Positions 52,311 to 52,406 of a DNA stretch of 64,000 nucleotides are shown here, one piece after another. Position numbers and translations under genes: made by a program. The number at the start of each line of letters is the position of its first letter. The first letter of the stretch is position 1. Source of the stretch: Eledone cirrhosa (Eukaryota); NCBI GenBank assembly GCA_964016885.1, contig OZ024751.1, positions 38,254,001 through 38,318,000 on the forward strand. Reading direction: 5' to 3'. The notes below the pieces were generated by a model, which was not told where the DNA came from, did no database searches, and saw only the letters and a program-made list of their open reading frames with translations.

Positions 52311-52406
52311 ATTCTCTAGAGAAGCCGGAAGATAGGTAAATATTGCTGATGAGATGTAACAACATCGAAACTAGTCCAATATTCCTTGTCTGGCTTTCTG
52401 GAGAAT
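52311..52406 (+). ncRNA. Type I hammerhead ribozyme, copy 1 (predicted cleavage after GUC, 52376)
   Basis: AATATTG-CTGATGA-GATGT-AACA-ACATC-GAAA-CTAG-TC-CAATATT: intact core, 5-bp stem II, palindromic minimal stem III (ACTAGT), bulged stem I extending to about 29 bp. Confidence 0.93.

What the first reader, a model, noticed from the sequence alone, without database searches (positions are those of the whole stretch)
52311..52406. Hammerhead built for dimeric cleavage: palindromic stem III and long bulged stem I
Seen: stem III is only A-CUAG-U, a self-complementary hexamer too short for a stable hairpin, while stem I runs about 29 bp (AATATTG/CAATATT, TA bulge, AGATAGG/CCTTGTCT, GAAGCC/GGCTTT, ATTCTCTAGA/TCTGGAGAAT). 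Established: hammerheads with palindromic minimal stem III (newt satellite 2, ASBVd plus strand) cleave as double hammerheads, and a stem I bulge docks onto loop II in type I motifs. Inference: cleavage is favoured in multimeric transcripts while the monomer circle is protected, acting as a copy-number switch.
Basis: partly seen in the sequence, partly recalled or inferred. Interest (0 to 1): 0.75.

Follow-up and report, generated by a model that had tools for sequence, protein, structure and literature searches.

The report
Hammerhead retrozyme with Penelope-type insertion ends
This is a hammerhead self-cleaving RNA motif in a 465-base repeat with about 9,500 copies in an animal genome, of a known design predicted to cut only in pairs, and the copies carry the insertion marks of Penelope-like jumping genes, which likely paste them in.

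Summary
The motif is real: a canonical type I hammerhead with a one-pair helix III capped by the palindrome CUAG, repeated five times at 465-bp spacing. It belongs to a non-LTR retrozyme family (9,509 hammerhead matches genome-wide, 9,383 with CUAG). The more useful result lies outside the finding: insertions sit in (TA)n, mostly as two head-to-head arms, one ending at monomer base 301 and the other at 227-232 (41 of 55 and 29 of 38 resolved sites). This is the inverted-plus-tail signature of Penelope-like elements (PLEs), shared by two PLE families of this genome, and two loci join a retrozyme arm directly to a 5'-truncated PLE. I found no report of this anatomy for retrozymes in six searches. 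Which PLE does the work is open. The scan noted a similar tandem-plus-inverted hammerhead insertion in another genome (e1-7908855). Verdict: new member of a known kind, with new indirect evidence on how it moves.

The parts
52158..54537 (+). Retrozyme insertion: single arm of 5.1 head-to-tail 465-bp units, 5'-truncated on the left, ending at the family's fixed 'long' end (monomer base 301)
   Evidence: TRF 52155-54537, period 465; four full units identical, right end at monomer base 301
52311..52406 (+). Type I hammerhead, copy 1, with its extended stem I
52346..52352 (+). Catalytic core CUGAUGA (further copies start at 52811, 53276, 53741, 54206)
52335..52345 (+). 5' strand of helix I: GG, UAA bulge, AUAUUG; pairs with 52377-52385 (CAAUAU, unpaired U, CC). 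Likely tertiary-contact site with loop II
   Evidence: same layout in Rfam HH9 consensus; covariation with family B
52353..52366 (+). Helix II, 4 bp GAUG/CAUC with loop UAACAA
   Evidence: pair probabilities >0.99; A-U/U-A swap in 26 of 53 loci
52370..52375 (+). Palindrome ACUAGU: helix III (A15.1-U16.1 plus CUAG loop) in a monomer, predicted 6-bp shared helix in a double hammerhead
   Evidence: self-duplex -4.8 kcal/mol; 9,383 of 9,509 genome matches keep CUAG
52376..52377 (+). Predicted cleavage site, after C17 (U17 in about half of the sampled loci)
   Evidence: hammerhead consensus
52377..52841 (+). Predicted 465-nt monomer, cleavage site to cleavage site; 37% GC, no stop-free frame over 64 codons
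   Evidence: circular MFE -152.4, z = -7.8 against 60 shuffles
52603..52677 (+). 'Tail' of unit 1: between the family's short end (monomer 227-232) and long end (301); holds a 13-bp hairpin at 52637-52665
52122..52159 (.). Left (TA)n-rich flank
54538..57736 (.). Right (TA)n-rich flank

Best explanation
The motif is a canonical type I hammerhead in a non-coding 465-bp retrozyme repeat; it is predicted to cut poorly alone and well as a double hammerhead between neighbouring units, likely releasing 465-nt monomers that would be circularised and that a Penelope-like element's RT/endonuclease likely copies into (TA)n tracts. Shown from sequence: the motif, its conservation, the tandem arrays, the two fixed ends in (TA)n, the head-to-head arms and two retrozyme-PLE junctions. 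Predicted by folding: two successive units swap their stem-I strands, pair their ACUAGU palindromes and leave the cut monomer's ends side by side; in a lone unit or circle helix III cannot form and the core CUG mispairs with UAG. Inferred from related systems: read-through transcription, RtcB-type ligation, and priming of both nicked target strands at two internal sites about 70 nt apart, each RT running round the template to give one arm. My odds by step: functional hammerhead in a retrozyme 0.95; dimer much faster than monomer 0.75; PLE-type integration 0.85; circular template 0.65.
For: Motif and covariation: (6 of 13 pairs with changes on both sides across two families; 6 rows, really two lineages). 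Palindrome kept in 9,383 of 9,509 family-A matches and in 28 of 31 family-B motifs listed. Energies: active single fold +8.4 kcal/mol in a linear or circular monomer, double fold +2.4 for both sites, +8.8 and +12.2 with the palindrome broken, +1.7 with another palindrome. Anatomy: 1,954 exact long-end junctions and 544 junctions of one short-end form, controls 0; 41 of 55 resolved long-end regions close with a short end and 29 of 38 resolved short-end regions close with a long end. Same long-end junction as loose ends in run X1. PLE-A shows one long and one short end on opposite strands in 9 of 16 regions; PLE-D likewise in L219. Junctions: L038 with PLE-A, L160 with PLE-D. Arms do not stop at the cleavage site (6 of 155 5' ends within 460-6, 4.0 expected, P = 0.21). 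Both arms carry the same variant (median 0.8% apart, against 5.1% between loci).
Against: No RNA evidence and no assay. In the tandem ensemble the inter-copy palindrome pairs have only P about 0.07, so the active double fold is 2.4 kcal/mol above the ensemble, and the local stem-I hairpin is predicted at P 0.97-0.98 until the second copy is made. Eight of nine Xenopus retrozyme dimers showed no cleavage in vitro (bioRxiv 2026.07.22.740005). For an Anolis PLE, hammerhead cleavage was not needed for insertion in vitro and uncleaved RNA was the main substrate (PMC11167929). The retrozyme has no significant match to the pLTR/3' UTR of PLE-A or PLE-D. The window's own insertion has no inverted arm. 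14 of 55 and 9 of 38 resolved regions did not fit by script. The L038 junction is unique and lies 615 bp from a contig end; neither junction was checked in reads. Same-variant arms do not prove one molecule, since the nearest other locus differs by a median 0.6%.
Confidence: 0.65

Rival explanations
1. PLE machinery moves the element, but from long uncleaved read-through transcripts; the hammerhead is slow or protein-assisted and circles play no part in copying.
For: Uncleaved RNA was the dominant substrate of an Anolis PLE in vitro and its hammerhead looked protein-assisted (PMC11167929); 8 of 9 Xenopus dimers did not cleave; local stem-I hairpin may trap the motif. Read-through of the cleavage site fits uncleaved multimers as well as circles.
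Against: Core, helices and palindrome are kept or covary between two diverged families, which implies selection on folding; units within an arm are near-identical (median 0.7%) in arrays of up to about 31 hammerheads (C1:5.74 Mb); circles are abundant for coral, mussel and axolotl retrozymes (PMC7229834).
Confidence: 0.2
2. The hammerhead cleaves well as a monomer because the loop I-loop II tertiary contact holds the weak helix III; the palindrome is incidental.
For: Canonical tertiary-contact layout is present; coral and mussel monomers cleave at about 0.8 and 0.1 per min (PMC7229834). Nearest-neighbour energies ignore tertiary contacts and Mg2+.
Against: That paper ascribes invertebrate motifs a two-pair helix III with a tetraloop; the one-pair palindromic form with intact tertiary contacts (axolotl HHR_Amex1) gave 6% in 1 h. 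CUAG is unchanged between families A and B although 6 of 12 helix I/II pairs changed on both sides.
Confidence: 0.15

Closest known systems
Metazoan non-LTR retrozymes (Cervera and de la Pena 2020, PMC7229834), especially axolotl HHR_Amex1 / newt satellite 2
   Same: Type I hammerhead in each unit of short tandem repeats, GC under 50%, no ORF, highly self-paired predicted circle; one-pair helix III with palindromic tetraloop
   Different: Unit of 465 bp is just above the 150-450 bp range given; no target-site duplication can be read in (TA)n; fixed long and short ends, inverted arms and (TA)n targeting are not described in the parts of that paper I read (supplement unreadable); expression untested here
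Endonuclease-positive Penelope-like elements (Craig et al. 2021, PMC8557442; Frangieh et al. 2024, PMC11167929; Arkhipova et al. 2013, PMC3846280)
   Same: Partial tandems, inverted 5'-truncated copy, tail at one end only, (TA)n targets
   Different: No ORF; tail about 70 nt rather than 30-40; many identical units per arm; canonical instead of minimal hammerhead
Non-autonomous Chlamys PLEs such as MRC1 (PMC8557442, passage)
   Same: Non-coding, multicopy head-to-tail insertions, moved by a PLE
   Different: Those generally share 3'-end sequence with their autonomous partner and that clade lacks canonical hammerheads; here no shared end was found with the two PLE families tested
Rfam Hammerhead_HH9 (RF02275)
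   Same: Same core, UA bulge and GG/CC layout, E 2.1e-8
   Different: 38.9 bits against gathering 52; HH9 has a 3-bp helix III with a 5-nt loop

Membership tests
Canonical type I hammerhead | Core CUGANGA, GAAA, NUH with three helices, open at helix I | tested here: met
Canonical type I hammerhead | 6-bp helix I and 4-bp helix II with conserved loop nucleotides; helix III of 1-2 bp with palindromic loop (PMC4209133) | tested here: met
Canonical type I hammerhead | Self-cleavage after H17 | not testable with these tools
   needs an assay
Dimer-acting hammerheads (newt, axolotl) | Dimer cleaves much faster than monomer | not testable with these tools
   energy model only
Rfam Hammerhead_HH9 | Score at or above gathering threshold 52 bits | tested here: not met
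   38.9 bits; none at gathering
Non-LTR retrozyme | Short tandem repeats, each unit with a type I hammerhead, dispersed in many loci | tested here: met
Non-LTR retrozyme | No coding capacity, GC under 50% | tested here: met
   longest stop-free frame 64 codons, GC 37%
Non-LTR retrozyme | Stable self-paired predicted circle | tested here: met
   z = -7.8 against 60 shuffles
Non-LTR retrozyme | Expressed as linear and circular monomer RNA | tested here: inconclusive
   no RNA holder listed; not evidence either way
Non-LTR retrozyme | Target-site duplication when present | tested here: inconclusive
   both flanks are (TA)n
Autonomous Penelope-like element | ORF with RT and GIY-YIG endonuclease | tested here: not met
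   none in the unit; present in separate families PLE-A and PLE-D
PLE-mobilised non-autonomous element | Inverted 5'-truncated arm and tail at one end | tested here: met
PLE-mobilised non-autonomous element | Sequence shared with the partner's pLTR or 3' end | tested here: inconclusive
   not found for PLE-A or PLE-D beyond an 18-of-21 antisense match to the PLE-A long end (p about 0.05 whole pLTR, 0.008 tails only, chosen after seeing it); other PLE families untested

The most novel reading that the evidence does not exclude
A hammerhead-made RNA circle is copied by Penelope-like RT/endonuclease from two fixed internal start sites about 70 nt apart, one for each nicked DNA strand, giving head-to-head rolling-circle arms; it does so without sharing a pLTR with its helper and can be handled by at least two PLE families only 28% identical in RT, which makes it a structure-recognised parasite of PLEs in general rather than a derivative of one.
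Probability: 0.35. Interest if true: 0.65.

Novelty: new member of a known kind. Interest (0 to 1): 0.45.

Why it matters
The ribozyme design itself is textbook. What could matter is the insertion record: the papers I read call PLEs the likely helper of animal retrozymes on grounds of co-occurrence, shared ribozyme type and, in frogs, pLTR similarity, and one review says the repeats show no motif pointing to the helper. Here thousands of insertions carry the PLE tail-and-inversion signature with base-level start sites, young intact-looking PLEs are in the same genome, and an in vitro PLE assay exists, so 'does a PLE copy a ribozyme-made circle, and from where' becomes a direct experiment.

Tried and rejected
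Rfam at gathering threshold: nothing. The look-up of sequencing runs: no RNA holder listed; four runs laid were contigs and say nothing on expression. Enrichment of arm 5' ends at the cleavage site, which would show cut linear RNA as template: not found. Homology of the unit to PLE-A pLTR or PLE-D 3' UTR: not significant. Second copy of the L038 junction in the genome: none. Read support for the L160 junction could not be obtained, so both junctions rest on the assembly. L173 first looked like a third chimera but is an inverted copy of the neighbouring flank. PLE hits beside L099, L202, L248 are separated by or face a (TA)n tract and are treated as independent insertions in the same target. 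Pfam on the whole PLE-A ORF gave nothing at E 0.001; sub-regions gave GIY-YIG above cut-off and RVT_1 below; PDB sequences gave only a weak intron-endonuclease hit, E 0.17. One row of alignment A1 had wrong coordinates; A2 replaced it. Lunse et al. 2017 is not held; the supplement of PMC7229834 was unreadable and may show insertion structure. PLE clade names were not settled: no tree was built. The host species was not identified.

Full report
Observation. The stretch 52311-52406 holds a type I hammerhead: helix I of 6 bp (52340-45 with 52377-82), a UAA bulge opposite one U and a GG/CC pair, then about 20 more pairs; core CUGAUGA; helix II of 4 bp with loop UAACAA; GAAA; ACUAGU; C17 at 52376. 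It folds far better than shuffles (z = -5.46, 0 of 200) and matches Rfam HH9 at E 2.1e-8, below gathering. It is the first of five cores 465 bp apart in an array from about 52158 to 54537 between two (TA)n tracts; the four full units are identical.

Family. The window lies in a 3.0-Gb assembly. A pattern for core plus helix II finds 9,509 matches, 9,383 of them with CUAG (exact patterns, so lower bounds). In 60 consecutive insertion regions of contig C1, 185 of 187 motifs picked up had CUAG (one of the other two is an unrelated motif), helix II showed an A-U to U-A swap in 26 of 53 loci, and position 17 was C or U in 27 loci each. Contigs of three further coded organisms carry the family; across the four runs laid, the listed differences include the same helix II swap and U17 and none in CUAG. 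A second family, B, also present in the window at 13945-14330, has the same layout with different stems; 28 of the 31 B motifs have CUAG. On a six-row alignment of A and B, 6 of 13 pairs change on both sides and 96% of cells pair, against 32-47% when slid; the rows are two lineages, so this is modest evidence.

Dimer model. With nearest-neighbour energies, forcing the active single fold costs 8.4 kcal/mol in a linear or circular monomer; in the free circle the core CUG is predicted to mispair with UAG of the palindrome. In a two-copy transcript the stem-I strands are predicted to swap between copies (P 0.96) and the active double hammerhead costs 2.4 kcal/mol for both sites; breaking the palindrome raises this to 8.8 or 12.2 and another palindrome gives 1.7. 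Against: the palindrome pairs themselves have P about 0.07 in the free ensemble, and the local stem-I hairpin dominates until the second copy is transcribed, so strand exchange may limit the rate. The model has no tertiary contacts or Mg2+. In print, PMC4209133 (passages) gives this architecture and this regulatory reading almost word for word, and PMC7229834 (parts 2-4 of 6) shows dimer dependence for the axolotl motif with the same helix III, efficient monomers in coral and mussel, and circularisation by RtcB. bioRxiv 10.64898/2026.07.22.740005 (parts 1-3 of 5) saw cleavage in 1 of 9 frog dimers.

Insertion anatomy. The best-matching loci showed arrays pointing away from each other with two recurring outer ends, both running into (TA)n: monomer base 301 and about 224-232 (12 of 17 other loci; a sample biased to young, long arrays). 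Genome-wide there are 1,954 exact long-end junctions and 544 of one short-end form, with 0 for reversed controls. I took the first 60 long-end regions on C1 and 40 short-end regions (skipping 9 already in the first set, all of which pair long with short). By script, 41 of 55 resolved long-end regions close with a short end and 29 of 38 resolved short-end regions close with a long end; 5 and 2 ran off the fetched stretch. By eye the script missed L169 and L236, misfiled L256 (short plus short), L246 has an N gap, and L171/L172 are one duplicated event. The two arms of an insertion differ by a median 0.8% (53 loci), like units within an arm (0.7%) and unlike random loci (5.1%). The 5' ends of arms are not enriched at the cleavage site (6 of 155), so the template was a circle or an uncut multimer. 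The window's own copy is one of the minority with a single arm.

Comparison with PLEs. Partial tandems, an inverted 5'-truncated copy, a tail at one end and (TA)n targets are described as PLE hallmarks (PMC8557442, passages; PMC3846280, passages), and the tail was traced to two internal RT start sites, with both DNA strands cut and extended (PMC11167929, passages). Two PLE families of this genome show the same pattern. PLE-A (L101: pLTR with a minimal hammerhead, 1,302-codon ORF, GIY-YIG above Pfam cut-off, copies 99-100% identical) has one long and one short end 60 nt apart in 9 of 16 regions, six of which were chosen for having opposed hits. PLE-D (RT plus GIY-YIG; 28% identical to PLE-A over 246 aa) has ends about 39 nt apart. 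Two loci are hybrids. In L038 a retrozyme arm with the long end joins a 5'-truncated PLE-A in the opposite orientation with no (TA)n between; the contig ends inside the endonuclease and the junction is unique. In L160 a retrozyme arm with the long end is followed by 41 bp of retrozyme in the other orientation and then 2.4 kb of PLE-D that closes at its short end in (TA)n, which is what one insertion using both RNAs would leave; a deletion between two neighbours is not excluded. L160 is 1 of 100 sampled regions. The retrozyme has no significant match to the pLTR or 3' UTR of either family, so it is not shown to derive from them; other PLE families were not tested.

What is in print. PMC7229834 and the review PMC7761336 (passages) name PLEs as likely helpers and the review says the repeats show no motif that identifies the helper; PMC11722881 (passages) repeats this. 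The 2026 preprint adds co-occurrence and pLTR similarity in frogs and has no use of 'tail' or, outside references, 'inverted' or 'chimer'; its supplements were not seen. Six library searches gave no paper describing this anatomy for retrozymes; subscription papers, Lunse 2017 (title only) and the PMC7229834 supplement were out of reach. Forster 1988 is known to me only as cited.

Verdict. A real, well-conserved hammerhead of a known dimer-acting design in a new non-LTR retrozyme family. The finding as written is ordinary; the family's insertion record gives good indirect evidence, stronger than co-occurrence, that PLE enzymes move it, and fixes the start sites for a direct test. Interest 0.45.

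Noticed in passing
window 13945-14330 (+): Copy of a second retrozyme family (B; 2,609 first-look candidates) with the same hammerhead layout, a U-U mismatch at the base of helix II, A17, and a related hairpin at its long end; this copy has CUAA instead of CUAG.
   Followed up: partly
window 11984-12700 (+): 3' fragment of a PLE related to PLE-A (61% aa over the endonuclease) with a minimal hammerhead at 12675.
   Followed up: partly
window 63060-63260 (-): Minimal hammerhead (core at 63134) in an inverted-repeat fragment of a dispersed family (40 scored of 1,100 candidates, 90-93% identity); likely a pLTR remnant.
   Followed up: partly
window 44407-45309: Minisatellite with 33/65/98-bp periods.
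   Followed up: no
G000:C1:14044536-14051102: Family-A array of 15 hammerheads in which 4 units have CUCG in a spaced pattern, suggesting local expansion after insertion.
   Followed up: no
L227:4474-6474: A 667-codon open frame in which PLE-D RT appears joined in frame to the C-terminal part of another PLE family.
   Followed up: no
L101:5076-8981: PLE-A ORF has a long asparagine-rich insert before the RT and looks intact and very young (99-100% identical copies).
   Followed up: partly
L173, L194: Retrozyme arm followed by an inverted copy of the flank beyond the (TA)n tract, as if the second strand was primed on target DNA.
   Followed up: no
family A, position 17: About half of sampled loci have GUU rather than GUC at the cleavage triplet, often with the helix II swap; GUU is recalled to cleave less well.
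   Followed up: partly
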